Position numbers and translations under genes: made by a program
Notes under the pieces: generated by a model
What the model was told of the DNA's origin: nothing
Databases searched by the model: none
What the model saw: only the letters and a program-made list of their open reading frames with translations
In this document: piece after piece, positions 2,643-59,952 of the stretch
Position numbering within the stretch: the first letter of the stretch is position 1
How the letters are laid out: each line of letters begins with the position of its first letter
From: Candidatus Latescibacterota bacterium
GTDB taxonomy: Bacteria > Latescibacterota > UBA2968
DNA: 64,000 nt
Reading direction: 5' to 3'
Assembly (NCBI GenBank): GCA_022823725.1
Contig: JAJEHL010000023.1
Span: 65,561 to 129,560 of the forward strand

Positions 2643-5006
2643 ATGTCCAAACAACCAAATAAATTAACCAGACGCAAAGCAATCGCTGGCATTGGTATCA
2701 GCGGCATTGTTCTCACACAGCACGCATTGTCTCAGGAGACCACCGTGAACACAACACATAGTGCAACCATAACGCGCTACCCCACCGTACAAGCTATGAA
2801 ATCCGCGCCCGAAATCCGCAAAGACGACTGGGCTGAAACCGCGGGCTTTTACGTTCCCGGCGACGGCGGCGCGGCCCTGTATCACATCGAAAAAACAGAT
2901 GCAAATAGCCAGCCAAACGATGCCGACATCATTGCACTGGACAATGGCACAGTCGCTATCTTGCACGAAAGCGAAGCCGTCAATTACAAAATGTTTGGCG
3001 CGATTGGCGATGGAGAAAACGACGACGGCGTACAAATAACTCTGGCGCATAAATACGCCAATGCGCGCAAAGTCCCAATTGTGAATTTAAGCGGCGAATA
3101 TTGGATCACGCAAACCAATGACATACCCATCAAAACCAACGTCTCCTGGGGGCAAACCACTTTTCACATCGATGAACAGTACAACAGCCAAAGGGAGCCT
3201 CGCTTTGAAATTCTCAACGATCACCCGTCAAAAAAACTCACGCGAGACGAAACCATCAAAGCGGCTTTATTGGAAAATCTAAAACCCGGCGTGCAACTCA
3301 TACCAGAACTGGCGCAATATGCAGGTCATCTTATCATCGCTGAAGATGACGATGATCGCATAGGCATTCGGGCAGGCAATTATTCAAAGGCGGGATGGGG
3401 GCGCGAAGAACTGTTCTACGTTGAAGAAGAGGGCCGTATCATTGGCGATATAGCCTGGGAATTCAAAAACTTCACCGACATCACCGCCATACCCTGCAAC
3501 GACAATTACCTCATCGTCGAAGGCGGCGGATTTTACTTTTCTGGCGACAGCGGAAGCGGTAGATCCTGGCGGTATCACCATCACGGCATCTCTATAAAAC
3601 GCAGCCGCACCATCATCCGCGAACAATGGATGGGCCTGGAAAAAGGGAAAAGCGATATCTCCATGCATCCCCGTCGCGGCTTTTACGTATTCAGCGGTGT
3701 CTATGACGTCACACTGGAAAATATCCGCGCAATGCCCTGGGAGAAAAATCGCGAAGAAAAAGACAGAGTGCTCGGCGCAGGCACCTATGGCATTGGCGGT
3801 GCGCGGATGCTCAATTGCACCTTTCGCAACATCACAGCAGAAGGCGGCTGGGTCGCCTGGGGTGTTTTTGGCACCAACCTCAACAAAAACTTCCGCTTTG
3901 AAAACTGCCACCTTAACCGCATAGACGTGCATTTTCACTGCTGGAACCTCTACATCAGCAACTGCACCATTGGCTTCAAAGGCATCGCCCTGACAGGTGG
4001 CGGTGAACTGGTAATCGAAAACACCACGCGCCACGGCAACTATTTTGTCAACTTCCGACGCGACTATGGCGCCAAATGGGACGGGCACATACGCATCCGC
4101 GGCTGCCGGTTGATGCCCAGCAGCAATGGACGCGTTTCTGTCCTATCCTATCGTCCGTCCGATTTCGATTACCAGTATCCCATAGGCTTTGCACGCACGG
4201 TCACAATCGAAGACCTGCTCATCGATTACAGTGCTGCACCTGCATCAACTGCACCGTGCTGGCTCATGGACACCGTTTCCTTTTCTAAAACCAAAAACAA
4301 CGACCGCCTCTTCTTCCCCCACCGCATTGAATTTCGAAACATCACCGTCGAAGGCAGAAAACAGGGCGTTCGCCTCATCCGCATACCCAACCCACACCAC
4401 TATGACCTGCGTCGCAACGGTGGCTATGATGGCGCGCAACTCCACGCCAACAGCACCCTCATCTGCGACAATGTCCAACTCGAAAAACTCACCCAGGAAA
4501 TTGCCGACGATGACGAACAGGTACACATCCTGATCGGTGGAGAATCAACGATTAGCTATGCCGATGCACTCGCTCTCTATCCCAAAATGCGATTTACCGA
4601 CTGTGAAAATATTAGCGCATACCTGGGCAACTGCATTGCCAGTGCGACTTTTGAACGGTGTAGCCTGAACACCATAACCGCGCCAAATTTGCGGGGCGAA
4701 CTCGTATTTACCGAGTGCCGTCTCCAACCCGACGTAAAAAAAGTACCAGAGCAATTTTATATTTTGCAAAGCACACTGGGCACGCGCTTCACCAACTGCA
4801 CCCTTCACGCCCCCATCGTCAACAGCACCATAAATCCGGACCTGATGGACCGCATGGGCTTTGTCAAAATCAACGAATCTGTACAGCACTACCATCTCAA
4901 CACAGCACTTGGCAATGACGTCATAAACCATCTCAAAAACTCGGGAATCACACTCACACCAGAATTTATCGCCCAACTAAAACTGCACCACGATTTGGAA
5001 TCGTAG
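2643..5006 (+). CDS. Tat-signal secreted right-handed parallel beta-helix protein (pectate-lyase / glycosidase-like fold)
   Basis: 787 aa. N-terminus RRKAIAGIGISGIVL is a twin-arginine signal. The body has many repeated N-x-T / NCT turns and periodic hydrophobics, typical of beta-helix repeats. Confidence 0.55.
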   Translation: MSKQPNKLTRRKAIAGIGISGIVLTQHALSQETTVNTTHSATITRYPTVQAMKSAPEIRKDDWAETAGFYVPGDGGAALYHIEKTDANSQPNDADIIALDNGTVAILHESEAVNYKMFGAIGDGENDDGVQITLAHKYANARKVPIVNLSGEYWITQTNDIPIKTNVSWGQTTFHIDEQYNSQREPRFEILNDHPSKKLTRDETIKAALLENLKPGVQLIPELAQYAGHLIIAEDDDDRIGIRAGNYSKAGWGREELFYVEEEGRIIGDIAWEFKNFTDITAIPCNDNYLIVEGGGFYFSGDSGSGRSWRYHHHGISIKRSRTIIREQWMGLEKGKSDISMHPRRGFYVFSGVYDVTLENIRAMPWEKNREEKDRVLGAGTYGIGGARMLNCTFRNITAEGGWVAWGVFGTNLNKNFRFENCHLNRIDVHFHCWNLYISNCTIGFKGIALTGGGELVIENTTRHGNYFVNFRRDYGAKWDGHIRIRGCRLMPSSNGRVSVLSYRPSDFDYQYPIGFARTVTIEDLLIDYSAAPASTAPCWLMDTVSFSKTKNNDRLFFPHRIEFRNITVEGRKQGVRLIRIPNPHHYDLRRNGGYDGAQLHANSTLICDNVQLEKLTQEIADDDEQVHILIGGESTISYADALALYPKMRFTDCENISAYLGNCIASATFERCSLNTITAPNLRGELVFTECRLQPDVKKVPEQFYILQSTLGTRFTNCTLHAPIVNSTINPDLMDRMGFVKINESVQHYHLNTALGNDVINHLKNSGITLTPEFIAQLKLHHDLES

Positions 5007-41363: not shown

Positions 41364-42731
41364 ATGGGCAAAGTGCGCGTGCGGTATGTATGCCAGCAAT
41401 GCGGTGCTGATTCGAGACGGTGGTTTGGTCGGTGTGTATCCTGTGGTGAATGGAACACCTGTGTCGAAGAACAGGCATCGCCCGAGGAAAAACAAAACAG
41501 ACGCGCGGACGAATGGGTCAAAGCAAATCCACCGCAACCGATTACGGAAGTGGTGGGCGGCAAAGAAGACCGCATAGAGACAGCCATCGGCGAATTTGAC
41601 CGCACATTGGGTGGCGGCATAGTGCCCGGCATGGCTGCGCTTGTTGGCGGCGACCCCGGCATAGGCAAATCCACATTGCTGTTGCAAGGTGTTGCACAAC
41701 TCGCATTTTCGGGTATGAAGGCGCTGTACGTATCCGCAGAAGAGTCCCCCCGCCAAACGCGAATGCGCGCCCAAAGAATCGGCGCGTTATCCGATGAATT
41801 GTACTTGATTTCTGAATCCAATCTCGATCTGATTTGCGGCTACATCGAAGAAATGCAGCCCGTCGCAGTTGTGGTCGATTCGGTGCAGACCATTTTTAGC
41901 CCAGACCTGCAAAGCGCGCCGGGAAGTGTGGCACAGGTCAGAGAATCTTCTGCAAGACTGGTGGCACTGGGCAAACGCACGGGCACATCAATTTTTTTAA
42001 TCGGACATGTCACCAAAGAAGGCACCGTTGCAGGGCCGCGCGTGCTCGAGCACATCGTCGATACCGTACTTTATCTGGAAGGCGAACAACACGGTGCGTT
42101 TCGCATTTTGCGGGCGGCCAAGAACCGGTTTGGATCGACAAATGAAATTGGCATTTTTGAAATGTGTGATCGGGGGATGGTCGAAGTGGATAATCCCTCA
42201 CAGGTATTCTTGCCCGAACGCGAGGCCGAGCGAGAAGGCACAGCCATTGTTTGCACAATTGAAGGCACACGTCCCATTTTGGTCGAAGTACAAGCACTGG
42301 TCAGCCGCAGTAATTTCGGATACCCGCAGCGCGTAGCCACGGGATTTGATGCGCGACGAATGGCAATTTTAATTGCCGTACTCGAAAAACGGTCGGGCCT
42401 GCAGTTGGGAACTGAAGATATTTTCTTAAATGTCGCAGGGGGTTTGCGTATCGACGAACCCGCTGTCGATCTGGGTGTAGCTATGGCTATGGCGTCGAGC
42501 TTTCGCAGCAGACAGATGCACCGCGATACGGTTGTAATTGGCGAAGTTGGGCTGGGTGGAGAAGTGCGTGCTGTTAGTCAAATTGAACGCAGAATGACCG
42601 AAGCGCGCAAACTGGGCTTCACGCGGTGTATTGCCGCCAAAGCAAATTTGAGTGGCGCGCGCATTCCCGATAGCCTGTCGTTGATTGGCGTTCAGGATGT
42701 GGATGCGGCGCAAGATGTGGTGTTTTCATAG
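41364..42731 (+). CDS. radA: DNA repair protein RadA/Sms
   Basis: 455 aa. C4 zinc finger CQQCGADSRRWFGRCVSCGEW, Walker A GDPGIGKST, KNRFG motif, and Lon-like C-domain. Confidence 0.95.
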   Translation: MGKVRVRYVCQQCGADSRRWFGRCVSCGEWNTCVEEQASPEEKQNRRADEWVKANPPQPITEVVGGKEDRIETAIGEFDRTLGGGIVPGMAALVGGDPGIGKSTLLLQGVAQLAFSGMKALYVSAEESPRQTRMRAQRIGALSDELYLISESNLDLICGYIEEMQPVAVVVDSVQTIFSPDLQSAPGSVAQVRESSARLVALGKRTGTSIFLIGHVTKEGTVAGPRVLEHIVDTVLYLEGEQHGAFRILRAAKNRFGSTNEIGIFEMCDRGMVEVDNPSQVFLPEREAEREGTAIVCTIEGTRPILVEVQALVSRSNFGYPQRVATGFDARRMAILIAVLEKRSGLQLGTEDIFLNVAGGLRIDEPAVDLGVAMAMASSFRSRQMHRDTVVIGEVGLGGEVRAVSQIERRMTEARKLGFTRCIAAKANLSGARIPDSLSLIGVQDVDAAQDVVFS

Positions 42732-42755: not shown

Positions 42756-43379
42756 ATGGCACCGAGAATTGTACACATTTCCAAATTGTTGTCATTGATG
42801 TTGCGACACAGGCCCGATGAGTTTGGACTACAAGTCGATCGCTATGGTTTTGCCGACCTCGATGCGGTTTTAAGTGCATTTCAAGACCGAAATTCGACAT
42901 TTACTCTTGAAGATATTGAAAAAGTGGTTTATGATGGAGAAAAGCAACGTTTCGAGATTGTGGAAAACCGCATTCGAGCGCGTTATGGACACAGTTTTTC
43001 CATTGATCTGGGTCTCGACCCATCTGAACCCCCCGAATTTTTGTATAAAGGAGTAGATTCTGCCGATGCCGAGCGATTATTGTCCGAAGGCCTGGCACCA
43101 GATGATCGCGATTATGTACATTTGTCGTTTGATGCCGATGTCGCCGCGAGGTTAAGCGCCAGGCCCGGACGCCGAGGGGCTGTCATACGCATTGCTGCGA
43201 CACGCGCCCATCAGAGTGGCGTGCATTTCTACGATTGTGGCCCAACCGTATTGACCAAACACATTCCTGGGGAATTCTTGGATTTAGAACGGGGAGGGGG
43301 AATAACATCACATAACATATCCCAGGAACGAGAGAATGTGACTTATGGTCGGCGGCGACGCTTCTCATCCCGGCGTTAG
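42756..43379 (+). CDS. kptA: RNA 2'-phosphotransferase (KptA/Tpt1 family)
   Basis: 207 aa. LSLMLRHRPDEFGL...GFADLD, RFEI...RIRARYGHS and YVHLS align closely with E. coli KptA. Confidence 0.85.
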   Translation: MAPRIVHISKLLSLMLRHRPDEFGLQVDRYGFADLDAVLSAFQDRNSTFTLEDIEKVVYDGEKQRFEIVENRIRARYGHSFSIDLGLDPSEPPEFLYKGVDSADAERLLSEGLAPDDRDYVHLSFDADVAARLSARPGRRGAVIRIAATRAHQSGVHFYDCGPTVLTKHIPGEFLDLERGGGITSHNISQERENVTYGRRRRFSSRR

Positions 43380-43440
43380 TAAATAGTAGCTTTGGGGCAG
43401 TGTTCACAAGGCTAAAATAACCTTCTCACAAACGCGTTTT

Positions 43441-44349
43441 ATGGCTAACTCCTACAAAAACCACACGCAGTCCTTGCTGAGTACCGCCAAAAATTTGGCT
43501 CGGGAAACCTGCGCCGATATGATCCTGCTCGTGGCCAATTCCGACGTGAGCCACACTGATGTACTCAAGTTGAACACCACCTGCCAGGTCCTGATTGTTA
43601 CGCGAAAAAAACACTTTTTGAAAGGTGTTGAAGAAAAGGGTGTACAGCGTTTAACTTATGATTATCACCTGGGCAATGACACGCACTTCGAACAGTTGCG
43701 ACAATGCGTTATCAGAGGCATGGAGAATGGATATATTCGTCGGGATGCGCGATTGGTATGCCTGAGTCATATGCTGGCTTCGCGGGGTGTGGATGCGATA
43801 ACGGTGATGGATACCAGTATTGGGTTTGATATATACGATTCGGCAAAAATCTCAGCCATAGCGGGCGATTTACCACTCAAAGTTGTCAAAACCACGCTCG
43901 ATCTTTCCATCGATATTGGTACGGAAGGTCGCGAAGGTGAACCGGTCGGCACCTTATTTGTCATAGGCGATTCCAAACGGGTTTTGCACCATTCGCGGTC
44001 CATGACATTTGATCCTTTTCGTGGATATTCCGATAAAGAAAAAAATATCTGCAATCCCGATGTTCACGAAGGTGTCAAAGAAGTATCGCTGATGGATGGT
44101 GCATTTATCATTCGGGAAGATGGCGTTATCCTCTCTGGAGGGCGCTATATTTCAGCAAGTGCGCGCGGTCTCACCTTGCCCAAGGGGTTGGGCGCACGGC
44201 ATGTGGCGGCGGCGGCGATTACCAAAACCACCCGGGCCATCGCCCTGGCTATTTCTGAGTCAACCGGAACGGTTCGCGTATTTAAACAGGGCAAAATCGT
44301 TTTGCAAATCAACACACACCGGTGGCACATTGGACAAGACCAGCGGTAA
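43441..44349 (+). CDS. Diadenylate-cyclase (DAC/DisA_N) domain protein with uncharacterised alpha/beta N-terminal domain (DacZ/CdaZ-like architecture suspected)
   Basis: 302 aa. The C-terminal half reads LMDGAFII...GLGARHVAAAAITKTTRAIALAISESTGTVRVF. This matches the DAC motifs hDGAvii and LGTRHRAA..vtD..sivVSEETG, except RHR is RHV here. Confidence 0.6.
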   Translation: MANSYKNHTQSLLSTAKNLARETCADMILLVANSDVSHTDVLKLNTTCQVLIVTRKKHFLKGVEEKGVQRLTYDYHLGNDTHFEQLRQCVIRGMENGYIRRDARLVCLSHMLASRGVDAITVMDTSIGFDIYDSAKISAIAGDLPLKVVKTTLDLSIDIGTEGREGEPVGTLFVIGDSKRVLHHSRSMTFDPFRGYSDKEKNICNPDVHEGVKEVSLMDGAFIIREDGVILSGGRYISASARGLTLPKGLGARHVAAAAITKTTRAIALAISESTGTVRVFKQGKIVLQINTHRWHIGQDQR

Positions 44350-44375: not shown

Positions 44376-45665
44376 ATGCAGCGATGGATCGTGCCCCTTT
44401 TAATGGGGTTGGTCATGACCAGCAGTTTTGCTGCGATGCCGGCATTGGGCCTGCCGGTTTTTTTTGTGCTTTTTGGCATTGCATCTGTGGCCTATCTCAT
44501 TGCAGTCTGGCATTGTGAATATGTGCCATTGACGGCTATTGTAATCGCTGCGGTTGTGTTTCGGCTCAGCCTTTTGTTTTCTATCCCCGCGCTGTCAGAT
44601 GACATTTATCGCTATGTATGGGATGGACGCGTACAGTGGGCGGGCATCAATCCCTACCTGTTTGCACCTGCGGCACAAGAACTGGCACATGTACGAGACG
44701 CGCTCATTTTCCCTAAAATTAACCACCCCGAATTGCCGACCATTTATCCGCCCATCGCCCAAATAGCATTCTGGGTGGGGTACGGCATTTCGAGTGGCAT
44801 ACTGGGTATCAAGGTGCTACTCGCCTGTGCCGATCTAATTGCGGGATGGCTTATCGTCTGTTTGCTCAGGCATTTTGAGCAGCGGACACAATGGGTTTTG
44901 ATTTACTTCTGGCATCCGCTGGTCATAGTGGAAATTGCAGGAAATGGACATATCGAATCGCTGGGCATTGTCGCTTTATTGGCCGCAGTGTATTTGTTCT
45001 TAAAAGGCCGAGATTACATCGCACTAAGTGCGCTGGGTGGGGCTGTTCTGGTAAAATTCCTCCCCCTTGTTTTTTTGCCGTATTTTGTGCGTTGGAAAGG
45101 GTGGCTGCCAACCAATTGGTCGGCACTGCTCATGGTACCCTGTGTCGTGCTTCTGGGATATTTGCCCTATGCCTGGGCTGGCGCATCTGTTTTGGGTAGC
45201 CTGGGCACTTATGCACAACACTGGTCGTTTAACAGCGCGGTATTTGATGTACTCATTCTGCTTTGCGACGATGGACAAATTGCACGCGGTATCATTGCCC
45301 TGCTCTTTTCAAGTGTTGTGCTGTTGCTGATCTGGAAGCGCGTCCCCCTGTTGCACGGTGCATATCTGACTGTGGCGACCTTTGTTCTACTCACCCCCAC
45401 GCTCCATCCATGGTATATCCTGTGGTTAATCCCATTTCTCGTTTTTTATCGGCATCCGCCCTGGATCGCTTTCTCACTCCTGGTGGTTTTATCCTATCAT
45501 ATTTTGATTCAATACCAGGCTCGTGGCGTATGGGAAGAAGCCGCATGGGTCCAATGGGTGGAATACGGTGGATTGATACTGGTAGGCCTCTCGTCTTTGC
45601 TTTTCAAACGCACAGAAATCTTGACGAAAATAGGGCGTTTTTTTAATATACATCGTCTAATCTGA
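44376..45665 (+). CDS. Polytopic membrane protein, GT-C fold glycosyltransferase-like (DUF2029 / GT87-like)
   Basis: 429 aa, about 11 TM segments. SDDIYRYVWDGRVQWAGINPY is the conserved DxxYRYxWDG loop after TM2 seen in mannosyltransferase-like GT-C enzymes. Confidence 0.5.
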   Translation: MQRWIVPLLMGLVMTSSFAAMPALGLPVFFVLFGIASVAYLIAVWHCEYVPLTAIVIAAVVFRLSLLFSIPALSDDIYRYVWDGRVQWAGINPYLFAPAAQELAHVRDALIFPKINHPELPTIYPPIAQIAFWVGYGISSGILGIKVLLACADLIAGWLIVCLLRHFEQRTQWVLIYFWHPLVIVEIAGNGHIESLGIVALLAAVYLFLKGRDYIALSALGGAVLVKFLPLVFLPYFVRWKGWLPTNWSALLMVPCVVLLGYLPYAWAGASVLGSLGTYAQHWSFNSAVFDVLILLCDDGQIARGIIALLFSSVVLLLIWKRVPLLHGAYLTVATFVLLTPTLHPWYILWLIPFLVFYRHPPWIAFSLLVVLSYHILIQYQARGVWEEAAWVQWVEYGGLILVGLSSLLFKRTEILTKIGRFFNIHRLI

Positions 45666-45751: not shown

Positions 45752-46234
45752 ATGCACAGATTTCGATACTTATTCTTTCTTTCACTATTTGTCGCCTGTG
45801 GAGCACAAGAACAATCTGCGGATTTACTCTTTCGAGAGGGCGAACAGGCCACGCACGACATGGCGTCGTATCCCGTGGCCGAAGTCAAATTGGCGGAATT
45901 TCTGACGCGTTTTCCCGATGACCCTCGTGCTGAGGTGGCACTACAGGCCCTGGCGAGGGTATTGATGAATCAACAAAAACACAAAGAAGCCATTGCGCGA
46001 TACGAAACCCTGATCGCGCGATTTCCGCAGAGCCGATATAGTGTACAGGCACAGTTTATGATTGGCTATATCCACGATCAACTCGGCGATTACGAACAAG
46101 CGCGGGTAGCCTATCAACAGGTGATTGATACCTATCCAAACTCTGAGTTGGTGGATGATGCCAAATTTTCAATCGAAAATTTGGGCAAAGTGCCCGATCA
46201 GTGGTTGCGTACCAAACCAATAAGTAGAGAGTGA
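45752..46234 (+). CDS. TPR-repeat lipoprotein (YbgF/BamD-like)
   Basis: 160 aa. Lipobox FVACG, then three TPR-like helices (YPVAEVKLAEFL..., YSVQAQFMIGYI..., YEQARVAYQQVID). RBS aaggagg. Confidence 0.55.
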   Translation: MHRFRYLFFLSLFVACGAQEQSADLLFREGEQATHDMASYPVAEVKLAEFLTRFPDDPRAEVALQALARVLMNQQKHKEAIARYETLIARFPQSRYSVQAQFMIGYIHDQLGDYEQARVAYQQVIDTYPNSELVDDAKFSIENLGKVPDQWLRTKPISRE

Positions 46235-46238
46235 TGCA

Positions 46239-47234
46239 ATGACAGTTGGACAAGATATTCAATTAATCAATGAACGGGTTGGGCGCGAAAGCGCGTTTGT
46301 CGATCGATTATTGTCCGAGGTGGGCAAGGTCATTGTCGGACAGCAGGACATGATTGAGCGATTGCTAATCGGCCTATTGTGCAACGGCCATGTCCTGCTC
46401 GAAGGCGTTCCCGGTCTTGCTAAAACTTTAGCCGTCAATTCATTGGCTCAGGCGATTCAGGCATCTTTTAAACGCATTCAGTTTACCCCCGATTTGTTGC
46501 CCGCAGACCTGATTGGCACAATGGTCTATCACCGGGAGACGGGCGAATTTATGGCTCAAAAAGGGCCTATTTTTGCCCAACTCGTACTCGCCGATGAAGT
46601 CAATCGCGCACCGTCAAAAGTGCAAAGTGCCATGCTCGAAGCCATGCAAGAGCGTCAAGTTACCATTGGAAACGAAACATTTGCCATGCCCGATCCCTTT
46701 TTGGTACTGGCCACGCAAAATCCCATCGAACAAGAGGGGACCTATCCACTACCCGAGGCCCAGGTTGATCGCTTTATGCTAAAAGTACGGGTAACATATC
46801 CCAATAAACAGGAAGAGCGCACCATTGTCGATCGCATGAGCCGCGATGCACCCCCTCAAATTGAGACAGTCATAACAACTGACGATCTCATTCGCGCGCG
46901 GAGTGTAGCCGACGAGATTTACGTGGATGATAAAATCAAAGACTATATCGTCGATCTCGTATTGGCAACCCGCGATCCAGAGGCTTACGGTTTGGGTGAT
47001 TTGCGCGCCCTGATCGAATTTGGCGGATCCCCACGCGCGTCTATCGCCCTGACCCGCGCTGCCAAAGCGCATGCGTTTTTGCGCCACCGCGGCTATGTTA
47101 CGCCCGAAGATGTGAAAGCCATTGGCCTGGACGTATTGCGCCACCGCGTACTGGTGACTTATGAGGCAGAAGCCGAGGAAATTAACTCCGAAGAAATCGC
47201 ACGCCAAATATTCGATCACGTTGAAGTGCCTTAA
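46239..47234 (+). CDS. MoxR-family AAA+ ATPase
   Basis: 331 aa. Walker A LLEGVPGLAKT, Walker B VLADEVNRA, AAA lid. Confidence 0.9.
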   Translation: MTVGQDIQLINERVGRESAFVDRLLSEVGKVIVGQQDMIERLLIGLLCNGHVLLEGVPGLAKTLAVNSLAQAIQASFKRIQFTPDLLPADLIGTMVYHRETGEFMAQKGPIFAQLVLADEVNRAPSKVQSAMLEAMQERQVTIGNETFAMPDPFLVLATQNPIEQEGTYPLPEAQVDRFMLKVRVTYPNKQEERTIVDRMSRDAPPQIETVITTDDLIRARSVADEIYVDDKIKDYIVDLVLATRDPEAYGLGDLRALIEFGGSPRASIALTRAAKAHAFLRHRGYVTPEDVKAIGLDVLRHRVLVTYEAEAEEINSEEIARQIFDHVEVP

Positions 47235-47301
47235 AATCAGTGAGACGTGAAAAGTAAAACGTGAGAGGGGTAGGGGGGCGTCTTACCTTTTACCGATTCC
47301 C

Positions 47302-48183
47302 ATGATTCCAACTGAAATTTTAAAAAAAGTGAAACGCATTGAGTTGCGCACGCGCAATCTGGTAAATACAATATTTGCCGGCGAATACCATTCGGTATTT
47401 AAAGGCAGGGGCATGGCGTTTGCGGAGGTGCGAGAATATCAGCCCGGCGATGATGTTCGCACAATTGACTGGAATGTGACAGCGCGTATGGGAGATCCCT
47501 TTGTCAAAGTGTTTGATGAGGAACGCGAACTCACCGTGATATTGATGGTGGATGCGAGTGCGTCGGGTGACTTTGGAACAGTGGCGCAAATGAAAGGCGA
47601 GATAGGTGCTGAGATTTGTGCTTTGCTCGCCTTTTCCGCAATTCAGAATAATGATCGTGTGGGACTGATCATTTTTACCGACGAAGTCGAATTATTTATT
47701 CCCCCAAAAAAGGGCAAAAAGCATGTGCTGCGCGTAATTCGAGAGTTGTTGTATTTTCAGCCCTCAGGACGCAGTACAAATATCGATACGGCATTGGAAT
47801 ATTTAAATCGCGTGACCTATCGGCGCAGTGTCGTGTTTCTGGTATCGGATTTTTTTGCTTCTGACTATGAGAAAGCATTGCGCGTTGCCAATCGGCGTCA
47901 TGATCTGGTAGCGATAGCGCTGGAAGATCCCCGGGAGTACGATCTGCCTGCAATTGGTATTGTGGAGTTGGAAGATGCTGAGACAGGCGAAGGTATAATG
48001 GTCGATTTTGGCGATGCAGCAGTGCGCGAGGCATTCCAAAAGCTGACAAAAAAAGAGCGCGATGACCGTGAAGCGTTATTTCGGCGTATAGGCTTAGACG
48101 CCGTAAATATTTCAACTCGTGGAGCGTATCACGAACCGTTGATGCAATTTTTCAGGATGCGGGCAAAAAAAATTAAAGGATAA
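47302..48183 (+). CDS. DUF58-family protein (vWA-like fold; MoxR partner)
   Basis: 293 aa. REYQPGDDVRTIDWNVTAR is the DUF58 signature. Its position directly after MoxR is canonical. Confidence 0.75.
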   Translation: MIPTEILKKVKRIELRTRNLVNTIFAGEYHSVFKGRGMAFAEVREYQPGDDVRTIDWNVTARMGDPFVKVFDEERELTVILMVDASASGDFGTVAQMKGEIGAEICALLAFSAIQNNDRVGLIIFTDEVELFIPPKKGKKHVLRVIRELLYFQPSGRSTNIDTALEYLNRVTYRRSVVFLVSDFFASDYEKALRVANRRHDLVAIALEDPREYDLPAIGIVELEDAETGEGIMVDFGDAAVREAFQKLTKKERDDREALFRRIGLDAVNISTRGAYHEPLMQFFRMRAKKIKG

Positions 48184-53059: not shown

Positions 53060-53088
53060 TTGACAGGTGCTCTCCATCGCCTTATTAT
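53060..53088 (+). promoter_or_regulatory. sigma70-like promoter candidate (TTGACA-17-TATTAT) upstream of the ATP-grasp operon
   Basis: A perfect -35 hexamer and a near-consensus -10 at canonical spacing, about 50 bp upstream of the ATG at 53138. Confidence 0.3.
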
Positions 53089-53137
53089 TTTTTTATCTCC
53101 ACATCACATAAGCCATTCTTTTTTGTATGGTGAATAC

Positions 53138-54619
53138 ATGGACTTCTCATCTTATAAACTCGACGGATTTTACGACGAGCTCTTTGAATCTCCGAACAGC
53201 CCCCATCCCGGCGCGCGAGTGCTCCTCGAAAAACTCGGCGAACTCTCCAAAGACGAACTCCAAAAACGCCATCAAGCCGCCGAACTGGCCTTGATGAACA
53301 TGGGCATCACGTTCAACGTATATGGCAGCGAAGCCGGCGTTGAAAAAATTTTTCCCTTCGACATCATTCCACGCATCGTTTCTCATACCGATTGGACGTA
53401 TATCGAAAAGGGCCTCGTACAGCGGATCCAGGCCCTCAACCTGTTTCTCTGTGACATCTACGCCGATCAAAAAATCCTCAAAGACGGCATCATTCCCCGC
53501 TACGTTATCGATACAGCTAAAGAATTCCTAAAACCCTGTGTTGACCTTTCCCCACCCCGAGGCCTGTGGTGTCACATTTCCGGCATTGACCTCGTGCGCG
53601 ATAAAGACGGTCAGTTTTACATCCTCGAAGACAACCTGCGCTGTCCTTCGGGCGTGTCTTATGTGCTTGAAAATCGCGAAGTTCTCAAACGCATATTTCC
53701 GGAAGTATTTGAAGCTTCTCATGTGCGACACGTCGATGACTATCCCGCTCAATTGCTCAACACATTGCGCTCTCTATCTCCTCCCCATGTCACATCACCA
53801 ACGGTCGTTTTACTCACACCAGGCATCTACAACTCGGCCTATTTTGAACATGCCTTTCTCGCCCAACAAATGGGTATCGAATTGGTCGAAGGACGAGACC
53901 TCGTCGTTACCGATGGTACTGTGGCGATGCGTACCACCCGCGGATTCCAGCGCATTGACGTCATTTATCGACGCATTGATGCCGACTTTATAGACCCAAA
54001 AGTCTTTCGCCCCGATTCTATGCTGGGCGTCCCCGGACTCATGGAAGCCTATAAAAAAGGTCAGGTTGCCATTGCAAATGCACCCGGCACAGGTATTGCC
54101 GACGACAAGGTCGTATATGCTTATGTCCCGCAAATCATTAAATATTATCTCAATGAAGACATCCTGCTGCCCAATGTGCCCACTTATGTTTGTTGGGACG
54201 ACAAGCAGCGTGAGCATGTGCTCGAAAACCTGGACACCCTTGTGGTCAAAGCTGCCAACGAGTCGGGCGGATATGGCATGCTCATTGGCGTAAATTCCAC
54301 ACGAGCCGAACGCGAAGACTTTGCCAACCGCATCACCCAAAACCCACGCAATTATATTGCACAGCCCACCATTGCACTCTCGCGAAGCCCTATTCTGGTA
54401 GATGACCACTTTGAAGGTAGGCACGTCGATTTGCGGCCCTATGTTCTATGCAATGGCGAAGATACTTATGTCTTGCCCGGCGGGCTGACGCGCGTGGCCC
54501 TTAAAAAAGGATCTCTGGTGGTCAACTCTTCACAAGGCGGGGGTAGCAAAGACACCTGGGTATTATACGACAGTGACGATCCGTTTGTCCCGTATAGGCA
54601 CCTGTCACAAACGCACTAA
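53138..54619 (+). CDS. Circularly permuted ATP-grasp protein, type 2 (DUF404/DUF407 family), paralog A
   Basis: 494 aa. N-terminal alpha-helical region, then an ATP-grasp core with permuted order. The two paralogs align along their whole lengths (for example [17 protein letters not shown] vs YALENRTAMSRIMPTLF, and [31 protein letters not shown] vs MPGGLTRRSSEFVGPTHTFVHSKDTWII). The ATG at 53138 is the likely start. The track ORF begins at 53060. Confidence 0.8.
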
Positions 54620-54634
54620 CGCACGAGCCATATT

Positions 54635-55594
54635 ATGTTAAGTCGAGCTGCAGAATCCATTTACTGGATGAGCCGTTATCTTGAACGCGCCGAAAATGTC
54701 GCCCGCTTTATCGAGGTCAATTGTCACTTGATGCTCGACTTACCCGTTGAAGCCAAAGGGCAATGGGAACCGCTTGTACTCACGACAGGAGATCAACACC
54801 TGTTCTACGAAAACTATGCAACGGACAATCAGGCCAACGTCATCGACTTCCTGACATTTAGTCCAGTAAATCCCAATTCCATTCTCTCCTGCTTGCAAAA
54901 CGCCCGTGAAAATGCGCGTTCTATCCGAGAAATTATTTCAACGGAAATGTGGGAACAGATTAATAAATTCTACTTGCAGGTACAAAACATCGACAAACCT
55001 CAGGCACAGGATGCTCCCCATACCTACTTTACAGATATCATCATGGCCAGTCACCTGTTCACAGGCATTCAGCGCAACACCATGTCTCACAATGAAGCAT
55101 GGCAATTTGCCCAACTGGGTCGGGCATTAGAACGCGCCGATAAAACCTCGCGCATCCTCGATGTCAAATACTTTTTTCTATTGCCCGAAGGTGATGATGT
55201 GGGCACGCTCTATGACAATATCCAGTGGTCGGCATTGCTCAAATCTACCACTGCCCTCGAAATGTATCGCAAGCAATTTGGCCCTATTGAACCCCACAAT
55301 GTGATCAATTTCTTGATCTTAAACCGCGAATTTCCTCGCGCCATTCGATACTGTCTTTTCGAGGCCAATCAATCGTTGCACACCATATCGGGCACACCCG
55401 AAGGCTCTTTCCAAAACCCATCCGAACAAGTGCTGGGTCGCCTGCTCGCCGAACTGGATTACACCAGTATTGATGAAATCATCACGCGGGGTCTGCACGA
55501 ATACCTCGACGCATTTCAAACTCGGCTCAACCAGATTGATAACGCTGTTTTCGAGACCTTCTTTACGATCTCGCCTTCCACCTCAACCGCTTGA
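54635..55594 (+). CDS. Alpha-E domain protein (DUF403)
   Basis: 319 aa. MLSRAAESIYWMSRYLERAENVARFIEV is the characteristic alpha-E N-terminus. All helical. Confidence 0.75.
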   Translation: MLSRAAESIYWMSRYLERAENVARFIEVNCHLMLDLPVEAKGQWEPLVLTTGDQHLFYENYATDNQANVIDFLTFSPVNPNSILSCLQNARENARSIREIISTEMWEQINKFYLQVQNIDKPQAQDAPHTYFTDIIMASHLFTGIQRNTMSHNEAWQFAQLGRALERADKTSRILDVKYFFLLPEGDDVGTLYDNIQWSALLKSTTALEMYRKQFGPIEPHNVINFLILNREFPRAIRYCLFEANQSLHTISGTPEGSFQNPSEQVLGRLLAELDYTSIDEIITRGLHEYLDAFQTRLNQIDNAVFETFFTISPSTSTA

Positions 55595-55595
55595 A

Positions 55596-57137
55596 ATGCC
55601 CAAAACCTCATCTGAAATTGCCGATTCCGTGTTACATCATCACGGAACGGGCATTATGCCCGAAGGGTATGCCATCGAACCCGGTTCTTATGACGAAATG
55701 TGGGACCCCAAAAACGGCGTGCGCGCCCATTGGCATCCCTTTTTTTCTGCCATAGAAAACATGGGCAGCAAAGAACTGGCGCGCCGCCACCGGGAAGCGC
55801 GATTGCTGCTGCGCGAAAACGGAGTTACGTACAACGTACACGGCGACCCCGATGGCTTGCACCGCCCCGGGGAACTCGATCCCATACCTCTGCTACTTCA
55901 GGCCAATGACTGGAACCATATAGCGCGGGGTGTGTCTCAACGCGCCGAATTGCTCAACCTCGTTCTCAAAGACATCTACGGTCCCCAAACACTCATCCGA
56001 GAGGGCAGGTTGCCTTTTGAACTCATCTATAATCACGCTGGTTTTTTGAGGCCCTGCAAAGATGTCTTTCTGCCCGCCGAGCATCAATTGCGCGTCTATG
56101 CCGCCAATCTCGCGCGAGGCCCCGATGGACAGATGTGGGTTTTGTACGACCACACACAGGTGCCTTCGGGCCTGGGATACGCGCTCGAAAACAGAACCGC
56201 GATGTCGCGCATTATGCCCACCTTGTTCAACGACTGCAATGTGCGGTGCCTGGCCGATTTTTTTCGCACCTTTCAGACCGGTCTATCCGAAATTGCTCCT
56301 CACAATATCGAAAACCCCCGGACCGTCGTACTGGCCCCGGGACCTTTTAATGCTACCTATTTCGAACATGCATATCTCTCGGCTTATCTGGGTCATACCC
56401 TTGTGCAAGGCGATGACCTCACCGTGCGCGATGGGCGCGTGTGGCTCAAATCCATCGATAGCTTGCATCCCGTCGATATCATTTTGCGCCACATCAATGA
56501 CGATTTTTGCGACCCATTGGAACTCAGCGAAGAATCGCAACTCGGCGTTGCCGGGCTGCTCAATGCCGCGCGAAATGGGTACGTTGCCATTGCCAATCCC
56601 CTGGGCAGTAGCGTGCTCGAAAATCCGGGCTTGATACCTTTTTTGCCCGGCATTGCGCGACACTTACTGGGCGAAGACCTCATACTGCCCTCGGTGGCCA
56701 CCTGGTGGTGCGGGCAAGCGCGAGAAATGAACTACGTACTCGACCATCTCGACAGTCTGGTTCTCTGTCCAATTGATCAGCAATCCGTTACCCCCCGCGT
56801 TTTCGGTGCCTTGCTCAGCCGCGCCGAGCGCGAAGTCTGGCGCGATCGCATCAGAGCAAATCCCACCCGTTACGCAGGCATGGAACGCGTCAGCTTTGCA
56901 ACAGCGCCTTCTCTGATCAACGGCCATATCGAATCTCGCTACACCACCCTCACAGCCTTTGCTGTCTTCCACCAAAATGCATACTCGGTAATGCCCGGAG
57001 GCCTCACGCGCAGGTCGTCCGAATTTGTCGGCCCTACACATACGTTTGTACACAGCAAGGACACCTGGATAATTGACGATCACCATGCACGCAATACAAG
57101 ACAACTGGCACCCACACACCGAAACTTTGGCGTATGA
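55596..57137 (+). CDS. Circularly permuted ATP-grasp protein, type 2, paralog B
   Basis: 513 aa. The ATG lies 2 nt after the alpha-E stop. It shares conserved blocks with paralog A (NVHGDPDG..., IANPLGSSVLENPGL, PGGLTRR). Confidence 0.8.
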   Translation: MPKTSSEIADSVLHHHGTGIMPEGYAIEPGSYDEMWDPKNGVRAHWHPFFSAIENMGSKELARRHREARLLLRENGVTYNVHGDPDGLHRPGELDPIPLLLQANDWNHIARGVSQRAELLNLVLKDIYGPQTLIREGRLPFELIYNHAGFLRPCKDVFLPAEHQLRVYAANLARGPDGQMWVLYDHTQVPSGLGYALENRTAMSRIMPTLFNDCNVRCLADFFRTFQTGLSEIAPHNIENPRTVVLAPGPFNATYFEHAYLSAYLGHTLVQGDDLTVRDGRVWLKSIDSLHPVDIILRHINDDFCDPLELSEESQLGVAGLLNAARNGYVAIANPLGSSVLENPGLIPFLPGIARHLLGEDLILPSVATWWCGQAREMNYVLDHLDSLVLCPIDQQSVTPRVFGALLSRAEREVWRDRIRANPTRYAGMERVSFATAPSLINGHIESRYTTLTAFAVFHQNAYSVMPGGLTRRSSEFVGPTHTFVHSKDTWIIDDHHARNTRQLAPTHRNFGV

Positions 57138-58015
57138 ATTATCGCATCACACACCAGACCCACTACGAATATACAGAGACCGTGAGCCTGTGCCACAATC
57201 AAGCCCGATTGAGCCCGCGTAGTTTTTTCAATCAGACATGCTTGAATAGCCACATCGACATCGATCCACAGCCAGCATCTTTTCGCGAACGAATAGATTT
57301 TTTTGGCAATCGCGCCGCCTATTTCTCCATCGAACAACCCCACAATATCCTCTCAGTTACAGCCACAAGCGATGTGCATATCGCATCGCAAACCCAGTTG
57401 ACCAGCGATATGCCCTGGGAAACCGTGTGTCACATCCTCAAAACCACAACCGATCCCGCCCTTCTTCCAGTGCGCCAATTCGTACTCGATTCTCCCAAAG
57501 TCTATACCGAACCCGAATTGACAAAATATGCAGAACCGTCATTTTCTAAAGACCGTCCCCTCATAGAAACGGTTAGCGACCTCACCCAGCGCATCTACAA
57601 CGACTTTGAATACGTACCGGGATTCACCACCATAAGCACGCCGTTATCCGATGTGTTCAAACACCGCAAAGGCGTGTGTCAAGACTTTGCCCACCTCGCC
57701 ATCGGCTGCCTCCGCGCGATGGGTCTGGCCGCGCGATATATCAGCGGCTACCTCGAGACCCTGTCCTCTTCCGACAAAGAGCACCTGATTGGCGCGGATG
57801 CCTCCCACGCATGGTTCTCTGTGTACCTGCCCAATCACGGCTGGATCGACTTTGACCCAACCAACAACCTCATCCCCCCTGACCGGCACGTCACCTTAGC
57901 ATGGGGCCGCGACTTTGCCGACGTCACCCCTCTCAAAGGTGTGGTCATAGGCGGTGGTCAACACGCGCTTACCGTATCTGTCACCGTAGAACCGATTTTG
58001 TGCCTGATTAAATGA
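57134..58015 (+). CDS. Transglutaminase-like cysteine peptidase/ligase with Bact_transglu_N domain
   Basis: 293 aa. N-terminal MNYRITHQTHYEYTETV is Bact_transglu_N. The core GVCQDFAHLAIGCLRAMGLAARYISGY carries the catalytic Cys, followed by DASHAWFSVYLPNHGWIDFDPTN with His and Asp. ATGA overlap with the upstream gene. Confidence 0.85.
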   Translation: MNYRITHQTHYEYTETVSLCHNQARLSPRSFFNQTCLNSHIDIDPQPASFRERIDFFGNRAAYFSIEQPHNILSVTATSDVHIASQTQLTSDMPWETVCHILKTTTDPALLPVRQFVLDSPKVYTEPELTKYAEPSFSKDRPLIETVSDLTQRIYNDFEYVPGFTTISTPLSDVFKHRKGVCQDFAHLAIGCLRAMGLAARYISGYLETLSSSDKEHLIGADASHAWFSVYLPNHGWIDFDPTNNLIPPDRHVTLAWGRDFADVTPLKGVVIGGGQHALTVSVTVEPILCLIK

Positions 58016-59406: not shown

Positions 59407-59952
59407 TTATTCAACCACATCAAAATCATGGAAATCTTCACCGGCTTCGAGTGATAGGATTTCCAGAGCGGTCGCGGCACCCTGCCCTGCGGAAATAATT
59501 GCCTGCGTGCGGATGAGGCGCGTATTCCAACCCACTGCAAAAAGCCCCTCAACCGAAGTGCGACCATCGCCATCGGCAACAATACCCTTGTTCTCCTTAG
59601 CCAAACTCAGATCCTCGGCCAATTTGGTATTTGTGCCAGTGGCTAAAATGAGATACTTACCCTCTCTTCGATCTCCATCCGCCGTTGTAACCGCAAAACC
59701 GCCATCGGTCTTTTCGGCATCGGTCACTTCTACATCCTCAACTGTGCCGCCCAAATTCTGGACCTGTGCCCGCCCTACCCGCTGAAACTCACTCCCCGTC
59801 ATCTCGGGAATGCCCAGATAATTGTAAAGCATCGCCTTGTGCATCGGCGTCCCATCTTGCCCAAACACCGTCACATTCTGACCATTCTTCGCCAAAAACA
59901 ACGCGGCACTCAACCCCGCAGGCCCATCGCCTATAATCAAAACATCTGCCAT
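59407..59952 (-). CDS. Compact FAD-binding oxidoreductase (thioredoxin-reductase-like FAD domain without an NADPH domain)
   Basis: 181 aa. VLIIGDGPAGLSAALFLAKNG is the N-terminal dinucleotide motif. The C-terminal GLFAVGWNT resembles the TrxR GxFAAGD FAD motif. There is no second Rossmann insert. Confidence 0.6.
   Translation of the reverse strand: MADVLIIGDGPAGLSAALFLAKNGQNVTVFGQDGTPMHKAMLYNYLGIPEMTGSEFQRVGRAQVQNLGGTVEDVEVTDAEKTDGGFAVTTADGDRREGKYLILATGTNTKLAEDLSLAKENKGIVADGDGRTSVEGLFAVGWNTRLIRTQAIISAGQGAATALEILSLEAGEDFHDFDVVE

What the first reader, a model, noticed from the sequence alone, without database searches (positions are those of the whole stretch)
43441..44349. DAC (diadenylate cyclase) domain protein with non-canonical RHV motif and unknown N-domain, downstream of radA
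The C-terminal 140 aa contain the DGA and (L)G-x-RH-x-AA blocks diagnostic of DisA_N/DAC domains: LMDGAFII, GLGARHVAAAAITKTT and LAISESTGTVRVF. The conserved second Arg of the RHR motif is Val here. That could mean altered nucleotide specificity or loss of cyclase activity.

The N-terminal 160 aa form an alpha/beta domain. It is not the HhH tail of DisA and not a CdaA TM anchor, so the architecture is most like DacZ/CdaZ, which is mainly archaeal. In Firmicutes disA sits immediately after radA. Here a DAC gene sits after radA-kptA, so a DisA-like DNA-integrity link may persist in a different architecture.
Basis: partly seen in the sequence, partly recalled or inferred. Interest (0 to 1): 0.6.

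Follow-up and report, generated by a model that had tools for sequence, protein, structure and literature searches.

The report
Ordinary bacterial DacZ-type c-di-AMP synthase
This gene encodes a normal member of the already-described DacZ/CdaZ class of cyclic-di-AMP synthases in a Latescibacterota bacterium; its "odd" RHV motif is the rule for that class, the proven Haloferax enzyme included, so the finding is ordinary.

Summary
The ORF (43441-44349, +, 302 aa) and the quoted motifs are real. The C-terminal half is a bona fide DAC domain: Pfam 75.8 bits against a cutoff of 27, and it superposes on CdaA and DisA structures. The N-terminal half is the DacZ_P/PK_C-like sensor domain. A profile-profile comparison with archaeal CdaZ gives 100 % probability (E 1.5e-68) over the full length.

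The two "interesting" inferences do not hold.

(1) RHV is not aberrant. The residue after Arg-His is hypervariable across this class. Experimentally active H. volcanii DacZ has RHM, 120 of 120 haloarchaeal DacZ lack Arg there, and Methanocaldococcus CdaZ has RHV, RHM or RHL. Planctomycetota have RHW, and 109 of the 120 closest homologues have RHV. DGA, G-x-R-H, the SES/TG block and the DGA-to-RH spacing (34) are all conserved.

(2) The radA link is local. radA sits upstream in only 12 of 22 Latescibacterota loci and in none of 58 Planctomycetota-type loci. The protein has no HhH DNA-binding domain.

The most likely function is Mn/Mg-dependent synthesis of c-di-AMP from two ATP by head-to-head DAC dimers, with the N-domain acting as an allosteric sensor. 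Homologues 90-98 % identical are already deposited, and some are annotated "diadenylate cyclase". Interest is low.

The parts
43441..44349 (+). DacZ/CdaZ-class diadenylate cyclase gene (302 aa)
   Evidence: ORF list. Pfam DAC plus DacZ_P. NCBIfam DacZ model aligned over query 28-293 against model 18-268 of 270, 161.6 bits. hhalign against archaeal CdaZ gives probability 100 %, E 1.5e-68.
43462..43812 (+). N-terminal DacZ_P / PK_C-like alpha/beta domain (residues ~8-124), the putative allosteric sensor
   Evidence: PF21755 at 26.4 bits (cutoff 27.4) and PF02887 at 17.9 bits for the window protein. 57 of 62 family members hit DacZ_P (best E 1.3e-39) and 39 of 62 hit PK_C. The AF2 model shows alternating strand and helix elements with pLDDT mostly 85-94. 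This region aligns to the archaeal CdaZ N-domain in hhalign.
43918..44298 (+). DAC (DisA_N) catalytic domain, residues 160-286
   Evidence: PF02457 at 75.8 bits, E 2.7e-21. Foldseek hits to CdaA, DisA and CdaM structures at E about 1e-7. phmmer hits to PDB CdaA chains.
44095..44103 (+). DGA motif (D219-G220-A221)
   Evidence: Invariant in 62 of 62 aligned family members and in the archaeal/bacterial alignment A3. Checked by script.
44191..44205 (+). G251-A-R253-H254-V255, the 'RHR-equivalent' motif with Val at the third position
   Evidence: G251, R253 and H254 are invariant while position 255 varies. Val occurs in 109 of the 120 closest homologues. H. volcanii DacZ has Met here.
44254..44268 (+). 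S272-E-S-T-G276 block, equivalent to the CdaA 'SEETG' block
   Evidence: S272 and S274 are invariant across archaeal and bacterial members. The block aligns to the SEETG block of CdaA chains.
42756..43379 (+). kptA/tpt1 (RNA 2'-phosphotransferase), upstream neighbour; belongs to the conserved synteny block, functional link not shown
   Evidence: PF01885 at 101.8 bits. Adjacent to the DAC gene in 22 of 22 Latescibacterota loci.
41364..42731 (+). radA/sms, two genes upstream; context only
   Evidence: TIGR00416 at 602.6 bits, above the cutoff of 403. Present in this slot in only 12 of 22 Latescibacterota loci.

Best explanation
The gene encodes a soluble, cytoplasmic diadenylate cyclase of the DacZ/CdaZ (DacY) class in a Candidatus Latescibacterota bacterium.

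Shown here: it has a C-terminal DAC domain with every class-invariant active-site element (DGA, G-x-R-H, the S-E-S-T-G block). It has an N-terminal DacZ_P/PK_C-like alpha/beta domain. It is homologous over its full length to archaeal CdaZ and DacZ.

Inferred by homology to experimentally characterised DacZ, CdaZ, CdaA and DisA: two DAC domains pair head-to-head, each binds one ATP with a divalent metal (H. volcanii DacZ needs Mn2+), and together they make 3'3'-c-di-AMP plus two PPi. The N-domain acts as an allosteric small-molecule sensor that tunes activity or oligomerisation; its ligand is unknown. The c-di-AMP then presumably regulates potassium and osmolyte homeostasis, as in other lineages.

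Val255 at the third position of the 'RHR' motif is the normal state of a position that is not constrained in this class. It is not a sign of altered chemistry. The position next to radA reflects a lineage-specific housekeeping gene block (coaBC-udg-dnaB-[radA]-kptA-dac), not a DisA-like DNA-scanning function.
For: Domain and fold:
- Pfam DAC scores 75.8 bits against a cutoff of 27.
- The NCBIfam DacZ model is the best hit at 161.6 bits, full length. That is comparable to the 188.3 bits scored by bona fide M. fervens CdaZ.
- CdaA, CdaS, CdaM and DisA models score only 20-42 bits.
- The AF2 model is confident (pLDDT 86.6, pTM 0.75). Its C-terminal half matches CdaA, DisA and CdaM structures.
- DacZ_P is found in 57 of 62 and PK_C in 39 of 62 family members.
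- hhalign of the bacterial family against Methanococcales CdaZ gives probability 100 %, E 1.5e-68, 282 columns, query residues 10-296.

Active site:
- D219, G220, A221, G251, R253, H254 and S272 are invariant across 62 relatives at 35-90 % identity.
- They are also invariant across archaeal and bacterial members.

Residue after Arg-His:
- Closest homologues: V in 109 of 120.
- 148 diverse representatives: A 44, W 13, T 13, M 10, V 10 and others; Arg in 4 by the strict pattern, plus 3 more among the sequences that pattern missed.
- Methanocaldococcus has V, M or L; Methanococcus has H or Y.
- H. volcanii DacZ has RHM, and 120 haloarchaeal DacZ show M 108, N 7, H 3, W 1, L 1 and no Arg.
- H. volcanii DacZ is active in vitro, and c-di-AMP is present in vivo (PMC6741144). 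M. jannaschii CdaZ is also reported active (PMC10249747).
- The DGA-to-RH spacing is 34 in the window protein, in H. volcanii DacZ and in 410 fetched relatives.
- In the PanS structure paper the conserved contacts are D, G and the first Arg. Base choice is set by an extended lid loop, not by RHR (bioRxiv 10.64898/2026.08.10.743927).

Context:
- The neighbours have no defence-system hits.
- radA occupies the upstream slot in 12 of 22 Latescibacterota loci and in none of 58 Planctomycetota-type loci.
Against: No enzymatic data exist for any bacterial member of this clade that I could find. The product is inferred purely by homology at about 30 % identity to the characterised archaeal enzymes.

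The window protein alone falls one bit short of the Pfam DacZ_P gathering score (26.4 against 27.4). It also falls well short of the haloarchaeal DacZ equivalog cutoff (161.6 against 430).

No c-di-AMP phosphodiesterase, receptor domain or ydaO riboswitch was found in the 64-kb window, and the rest of the genome could not be searched.

I could not retrieve the exact M. jannaschii CdaZ sequence, only congeners. The contribution of the second Arg in RHR-type enzymes has only been tested as a triple RHR-to-AAA mutant (PMC3328451), so its individual role is not established either way.
Confidence: 0.85

Rival explanations
1. Altered-product cyclase. The R-to-V change, or other features, redirects the DAC domain to make a different cyclic dinucleotide (e.g. 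cUA, cGAMP-like or c-di-GMP) or a linear product.
For: DAC domains can make products other than c-di-AMP: PanS makes 3'3'-cUA (bioRxiv 10.64898/2026.08.10.743927). No product has been measured for any Latescibacterota or Planctomycetota member.
Against: In PanS the specificity comes from an extended flexible lid loop (D71 to R108 is 37 residues) and altered motifs (DGF, GGR), not from the third RHR position. The window protein has canonical DGA and G-x-RH, and the same DGA-to-RH spacing (34) as the c-di-AMP-producing H. volcanii DacZ. H. volcanii DacZ carries a hydrophobic residue (Met) at the same position and makes c-di-AMP (PMC6741144). The gene's surroundings are not a defence island.
Confidence: 0.06
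2. Catalytically dead pseudo-cyclase. The protein has lost cyclase activity and acts only as a nucleotide-binding or regulatory protein.
For: The RHR-to-AAA triple mutant abolishes ATP binding and activity in M. tuberculosis DisA (PMC3328451), so the motif region matters. The third residue differs from the textbook motif.
Against: All other active-site residues are invariant across phyla and domains, which argues for retained catalysis. Val is conserved in 109 of 120 close homologues. Proven active DacZ lacks the second Arg. The position is the least constrained in the motif.
Confidence: 0.04
3. Functional analogue of DisA. The cyclase is coupled to DNA repair or replication through its neighbours radA and dnaB (or to KptA chemistry), reporting DNA or RNA integrity via c-di-AMP.
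For: In the window the gene lies in a tight co-directional block dnaB-radA-kptA-dac, with gaps of 12, 24 and 61 nt. kptA-dac adjacency holds in 22 of 22 Latescibacterota loci. In 14 Planctomycetota loci polA lies within the two genes downstream. In Firmicutes radA-disA form an operon (established knowledge).
Against: radA is absent from the slot in 10 of 22 Latescibacterota loci and in all 58 Planctomycetota-type loci. The whole coaBC-udg-dnaB block is equally conserved, so the adjacency may simply be phylogenetic inertia. The protein has no HhH or other DNA-binding domain. Haloarchaeal dacZ sits in unrelated contexts (an MscS operon in H. volcanii according to PMC6741144).
Confidence: 0.05

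Closest known systems
DacZ of Haloferax volcanii (HVO_1660; NCBIfam NF041371), a characterised archaeal diadenylate cyclase
   Same: Two-domain soluble architecture, with an alpha/beta PK_C-like N-domain and a C-terminal DAC. Shares DGA, G-A-R-H followed by a hydrophobic residue (Met against Val), the SES-type block and an identical DGA-to-RH spacing of 34. The DacZ model is the best NCBIfam hit and aligns end to end.
   Different: Only about 30 % identity. The score of 161.6 bits is far below the haloarchaeal equivalog cutoff of 430. The haloarchaeal N-domain is filed in Pfam as DACZ_N (PF19294), whereas this protein's N-domain matches DacZ_P (PF21755); 10 of 62 relatives hit both. The genomic context also differs: an MscS operon in H. 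volcanii (PMC6741144) against kptA upstream here.
CdaZ / DacY of Methanocaldococcus (M. jannaschii enzyme reported active; M. fervens, indicus and infernus sequences examined)
   Same: PK_C-type N-domain plus DAC. M. fervens, M. indicus and M. infernus have the identical LGARHVAAA motif. Profile-profile homology is 100 % probability over 282 columns, N-domain included.
   Different: About 30 % identity. The archaeal proteins carry an insertion of roughly 30 residues in the N-domain. They are archaeal hyperthermophile proteins, not bacterial ones. The exact M. jannaschii sequence was not retrieved.
DisA (DNA integrity scanning protein)
   Same: Shares the DAC catalytic domain and, in this window, a position downstream of radA.
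   Different: DisA has its DAC domain at the N-terminus, followed by a helical linker and a C-terminal HhH DNA-binding domain, and it has RHR. Here the DAC domain is C-terminal and there is no HhH. The DisA model scores 20.2 bits against a cutoff of 201. radA adjacency is not conserved.
CdaA (DacA), the membrane-anchored cyclase
   Same: DAC domain fold and catalytic motifs. These are the best PDB sequence and structure matches.
   Different: CdaA has three N-terminal TM helices and RHR. This protein has no TM segment. TIGR00159 scores 34.6 bits against a cutoff of 188.8.
Defence-associated DACs (PanS / DS-2C)
   Same: DAC domain; a weak PADLOC 'diadenylate cyclase' domain hit of 45 bits.
   Different: Those are either minimal (~150 aa) or DACNG/DACNH-fused proteins in defence islands, with remodelled motifs and lid. 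Here the motifs are canonical, the sensor domain is DacZ_P, and the neighbours are housekeeping genes.

Membership tests
DAC (DisA_N, PF02457) catalytic domain superfamily | Profile match above the curated threshold | tested here: met
   75.8 bits against a gathering score of 27, E 2.7e-21, covering profile positions 3-119 of 119.
DAC (DisA_N, PF02457) catalytic domain superfamily | DGA motif | tested here: met
   D219-G220-A221 is present. It is invariant in the family.
DAC (DisA_N, PF02457) catalytic domain superfamily | G-x-R-H of the 'RHR' motif (first Arg and His) | tested here: met
   G251, R253 and H254 are present and invariant.
DAC (DisA_N, PF02457) catalytic domain superfamily | Second Arg of RHR (textbook motif of DisA and CdaA) | tested here: not met
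   The residue is V255. However, this residue is not conserved in the DacZ/CdaZ branch. Proven active H. volcanii DacZ has Met, and none of 120 haloarchaeal DacZ has Arg. It is therefore not a defining feature of the superfamily.
DAC (DisA_N, PF02457) catalytic domain superfamily | Mixed alpha/beta DAC fold | tested here: met
   AF2 model with pLDDT 86.6. Foldseek against the PDB returns CdaA, DisA and CdaM at E about 1e-7, with TM-scores normalised to the target of up to 0.69.
DAC (DisA_N, PF02457) catalytic domain superfamily | Synthesis of c-di-AMP from ATP | not testable with these tools
   Requires an enzyme assay and LC-MS.
DacZ/CdaZ (DacY) class | N-terminal PK_C-like / DacZ_P alpha/beta domain | tested here: met
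   The single sequence is borderline: DacZ_P 26.4 bits against 27.4, PK_C 17.9 bits. At family level the result is clear: DacZ_P in 57 of 62 members (best E 1.3e-39) and PK_C in 39 of 62. hhalign against archaeal CdaZ aligns residues 10-150 of the N-domain within a match at 100 % probability.
DacZ/CdaZ (DacY) class | DAC domain at the C-terminus, with no TM helices and no HhH | tested here: met
   The DAC domain spans residues 160-286 of 302. The maximum KD(19) is 1.29, below the ~1.6 TM threshold. No HhH hit.
DacZ/CdaZ (DacY) class | NCBIfam NF041371 equivalog cutoff (a model built on Halobacteria) | tested here: not met
   161.6 bits against 430. Bona fide M. fervens CdaZ also fails, at 188.3 bits, whereas Haladaptatus DacZ passes at 449.8 and 441.8. 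The cutoff therefore defines the haloarchaeal orthologue group, not the class.
DisA | N-terminal DAC, helical linker and C-terminal HhH DNA-binding domain | tested here: not met
   There is no HhH or linker domain, and the DAC domain is C-terminal. NF010009 scores 20.2 bits against 201.
DisA | Conserved radA-disA operon context | tested here: not met
   radA lies two genes upstream in the window. It occupies that slot in only 12 of 22 Latescibacterota loci and in none of 58 Planctomycetota-type loci.
CdaA | N-terminal transmembrane helices; TIGR00159 cutoff | tested here: not met
   No TM segment. The model scores 34.6 bits against 188.8.
Defence-island DACs (PanS / DS-2C) | Defence-island context, a partner effector, and a remodelled lid and motifs | tested here: not met
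   The neighbours have no PADLOC hits apart from a weak RadA hit to mad8. The motifs are the canonical DGA and GxRH, and the spacing is 34 against 37 in PanS.

The most novel reading that the evidence does not exclude
The invariant kptA-dac pairing in Latescibacterota (22 of 22 loci, kept even where radA is absent) might reflect a real functional coupling. For example, the DacZ_P sensor domain might bind a nucleotide-derived metabolite linked to KptA/Tpt1 chemistry (NAD+ consumption, or ADP-ribose 1'',2''-cyclic phosphate). c-di-AMP output would then report RNA-repair or NAD status. More generally, bacterial DacZ-type cyclases might be wired to replication and repair blocks (dnaB/radA here, polA in Planctomycetota). 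Nothing tested here demonstrates this. The adjacency is equally well explained by conserved synteny of a housekeeping block.
Probability: 0.04. Interest if true: 0.55.

Novelty: new member of a known kind. Interest (0 to 1): 0.13.

Why it matters
It matters little beyond correct annotation. The gene can be called a DacZ/CdaZ-class diadenylate cyclase, and the Latescibacterota lineage can be predicted to use c-di-AMP signalling.

The useful general point is a caution. The textbook 'RHR' motif comes from DisA and CdaA. In the DacZ/CdaZ branch only R-H is constrained, and the third position is free (M, V, A, W, H, Y and others). Deviation there should not be read as loss or change of function.

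No bacterial DacZ-type enzyme appears to have been characterised biochemically, and the ligand of the PK_C-like sensor domain is unknown in any organism. That remains a modest open question.

Tried and rejected
- **Retrieving M. jannaschii CdaZ.** The search from a Methanothermococcus homologue returned many Methanocaldococcus species but not M. jannaschii. The Kellenberger 2015, Galperin 2023 and Commichau 2018 papers are not held. I relied on congeners and on H. volcanii DacZ, which was retrieved.
- **Finding haloarchaeal DacZ among the 150 best representatives by amino-acid composition.** None was there. A tblastn against plasmids gave Haladaptatus dacZ, which seeded the successful search.
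- **c-di-AMP turnover and receptor genes, and the ydaO riboswitch.** There were no Rfam hits at gathering thresholds. A Pfam sweep of about 40 window ORFs found no DHH/DHHA1, HD, RCK_C, CBS or USP candidates. This is uninformative, because the window is about 1 % of the genome and whole genomes cannot be scanned with these tools.
- **Promoter and terminator scan of the block.** It was not informative: the promoter-like count was about twice the shuffle mean (26 against 13.5), but no site lies in the kptA-dac gap, and the terminator-like count was at background (17 against 14.7).
- **Defence-system reading.** Rejected after the PADLOC scan.
- **Pseudo-enzyme reading.** Rejected because of the invariant catalytic residues.

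Full report
**Observation.** The ORF at 43441-44349 (+) is real: ATG start, 302 aa. Its translation contains the three quoted peptides. A script confirmed D219-G220-A221, G251-A-R253-H254-V255 and S272-E-S-T-G276. HMMER alignments to solved CdaA chains put V255 opposite the second Arg of the CdaA 'GTRHRAA' motif. Immediately upstream on the same strand lie dnaB, radA (TIGR00416, 602.6 bits) and kptA/tpt1 (PF01885, 101.8 bits). The gaps are 12, 24 and 61 nt.

**What it is.**
- Pfam finds a full-length DAC domain at residues 160-286: 75.8 bits against a cutoff of 27, E 2.7e-21.
- At residues 8-124 it finds the 'probable sensor domain DacZ_P' (26.4 bits, one bit under the cutoff) and, more weakly, PK_C.
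- Among NCBIfam models the best hit by far is the DacZ model: 161.6 bits, aligned end to end. CdaM, CdaA, CdaS and DisA models score only 20-42 bits.
- There is no HhH domain and no transmembrane segment.
- An AlphaFold2 model built on 62 relatives is confident (pLDDT 86.6, pTM 0.75). It shows an alpha/beta N-domain followed by the DAC fold.
- The DAC half matches CdaA, DisA and CdaM crystal structures.
- At family level the N-domain assignment is clear. DacZ_P is detected in 57 of 62 relatives (best E 1.3e-39) and PK_C in 39 of 62.
- A profile-profile comparison of the bacterial family with Methanococcales CdaZ gives 100 % probability, E 1.5e-68, over 282 columns. These cover residues 10-296 of the window protein.

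The protein is therefore a member of the DacZ/CdaZ (DacY) class. Braun et al. [quoted passage not shown]

**Whose gene it is, and how common.** Orthologues 97-98 % identical lie on complete chromosomes of Candidatus Latescibacterota MAGs, so the window comes from that phylum. The family occurs in at least 22 Latescibacterota species-level genomes at 54-98 % identity. It also occurs in many Planctomycetota at 35-40 % identity. An exhaustive search finds 1406 clusters at 50 % identity with E <= 1e-3, of which 302 have E <= 1e-30. Close homologues are already annotated 'diadenylate cyclase' by NCBI and JGI.

**The RHV motif.**
- Among the 120 closest homologues the residue after Arg-His is V in 109, W in 5, and L, I or K once each. 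It is never R.
- Among 148 diverse representatives it is A 44, W 13, T 13, M 10, V 10, Q 8, L 7 and so on. Arg occurs in only a handful.
- Named archaeal CdaZ proteins vary as well. Methanocaldococcus fervens, indicus and infernus have exactly LGARHVAAA. Other Methanocaldococcus have RHM or RHL. Methanococcus has RHH or RHY. Only Methanotorris has RHR.
- Haloarchaeal DacZ that pass the NCBIfam equivalog cutoff have RHH.
- The H. volcanii DacZ protein itself (P0444, on the 2.85-Mb chromosome) reads GLGARHMAGGAI.
- Across 120 haloarchaeal DacZ the position is M 108, N 7, H 3, W 1, L 1, and never R.

H. volcanii DacZ makes c-di-AMP in vitro and in vivo (PMC6741144). M. jannaschii CdaZ is reported active (PMC10249747). 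So a hydrophobic residue at this position is compatible with diadenylate cyclase activity.

By contrast, D219, G220, A221, G251, R253, H254 and S272 are invariant across bacteria and archaea. The DGA-to-RH spacing, a proxy for the length of the lid loop, is 34 in the window protein, in H. volcanii DacZ and in 410 fetched relatives.

The one DAC known to make a different product is PanS, which makes 3'3'-cUA. It does so through an extended flexible lid loop (D71 to R108 is 37 residues) and altered motifs. The conserved ligand contacts there are D, G and the first Arg (bioRxiv 10.64898/2026.08.10.743927). The classic mutagenesis that established the importance of RHR was a triple RHR-to-AAA change (PMC3328451), which says nothing specific about the third residue. 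I conclude that RHV is the normal state of an unconstrained position in this class.

**The radA context.** A tblastn comparison of 80 related loci shows a conserved Latescibacterota block, coaBC-udg-dnaB-[radA]-kptA-dac.
- kptA-dac adjacency holds in 22 of 22 loci.
- radA occupies its slot in only 12 of 22. In the other ten, dnaB is followed directly by kptA, with no room for a radA gene.
- None of the 58 Planctomycetota-type loci has radA or kptA nearby. Their recurrent neighbours are an unknown ~540-aa protein and a HEAT-like lipoprotein upstream, and polA, coaE and rho downstream.
- Haloarchaeal dacZ sits in yet other contexts.

DisA's link to DNA depends on its HhH domain, which is absent here. 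A DisA-like DNA-integrity role is therefore not supported. The adjacency is best read as lineage-specific synteny in a housekeeping block. I cannot exclude co-transcription: the genes are co-directional with short gaps, and the promoter and terminator scans were uninformative.

**Other checks.** No Rfam family, ydaO included, is detected in the window. A Pfam sweep of about 40 window ORFs found no c-di-AMP phosphodiesterase or receptor domains. With 64 kb out of roughly 5.5 Mb, this carries no weight either way. PADLOC gives only a generic DAC-domain hit and nothing for the neighbours, so the gene is not in a defence-island context.

**Mechanism.**
- Shown: the domain architecture, the fold, conservation of the catalytic residues, and full-length homology to characterised DacZ and CdaZ.
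- Inferred: head-to-head DAC dimers condense two ATP into 3'3'-c-di-AMP with a divalent metal (Mn2+ in H. volcanii DacZ). The PK_C-like N-domain is an allosteric sensor of unknown ligand. The output feeds osmotic and potassium homeostasis.
- Confidence that it is an active c-di-AMP synthase of the DacZ/CdaZ class: about 0.85.
- Rivals together take about 0.15: altered product 0.06, DisA-like coupling 0.05, dead enzyme 0.04.

**Verdict.** This is an ordinary, already-annotated kind of gene, a new member of a known class. The two features that made it look interesting are explained away. Interest 0.13.

Noticed in passing
window 42756-44349, and L001-L022: kptA (RNA 2'-phosphotransferase) sits directly upstream of the DAC gene in 22 of 22 Latescibacterota loci, including the ten in which radA is missing from the block. 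It may be mere synteny, but it is the most conserved adjacency of this DAC gene.
   Followed up: partly
P0169, P0245, P0234, P0242 (relatives of about 440-510 aa): Many relatives of the DAC protein carry an extra N-terminal PTS EIIA (fruA/PtsN-like) domain fused to the DacZ-type core. This suggests a phosphotransfer input into c-di-AMP synthesis in those lineages.
   Followed up: no
L023-L080 (Planctomycetota-type loci): The DacZ-type gene (motif RHW) is often followed by polA, coaE and rho, and preceded by a conserved unknown ~540-aa protein and a HEAT-like lipoprotein. In both phyla a CoA-biosynthesis gene and a DNA replication or repair gene lie nearby (coaBC/dnaB here, coaE/polA there).
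   Followed up: partly
window 44376-45665 (+): A 429-aa polytopic membrane protein has no Pfam hit and only weak similarity to polyprenol-phosphate mannosyltransferases (MptB-type, 22-32 bits). It is found downstream of the DAC gene in 19 of the 22 Latescibacterota loci, directly adjacent only in the closest relatives.
   Followed up: no
window 53060-58015 (+): A four-gene cluster: circularly permuted ATP-grasp, Alpha-E, a second circularly permuted ATP-grasp, and a transglutaminase-like protein. This is a recurrent bacterial cluster of unknown function.
   Followed up: no
window 2643-5006 (+): A 787-aa ORF with no Pfam match at E <= 1e-5. It lies next to a creatininase-family gene and a TonB-dependent receptor.
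   Followed up: no
window 46239-48183 (+): A MoxR AAA+ ATPase followed by a DUF58/vWA protein, preceded by a TPR lipoprotein-like gene at 45752-46234. It is a typical MoxR-vWA pair.
   Followed up: no
L081 and L082 (Haladaptatus megaplasmids, 540 and 600 kb): Haloarchaeal dacZ copies lie on secondary replicons. They pass the DacZ equivalog cutoff but carry RHH rather than the RHM typical of chromosomal haloarchaeal DacZ. They may be paralogous second copies.
   Followed up: partly
P0263 (496 aa): A database 'protein' that combines an EF-G fragment, a DAC core and an FGGY sugar-kinase fragment. It is most likely a chimeric assembly or gene call rather than a real fusion.
   Followed up: no
window 59407-59952 (-): A 181-aa ORF matches only the N-terminal part of pyridine-nucleotide disulphide oxidoreductases (Pyr_redox_2 profile positions 2-108 of 291). 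It may be a truncated or frameshifted gene.
   Followed up: no
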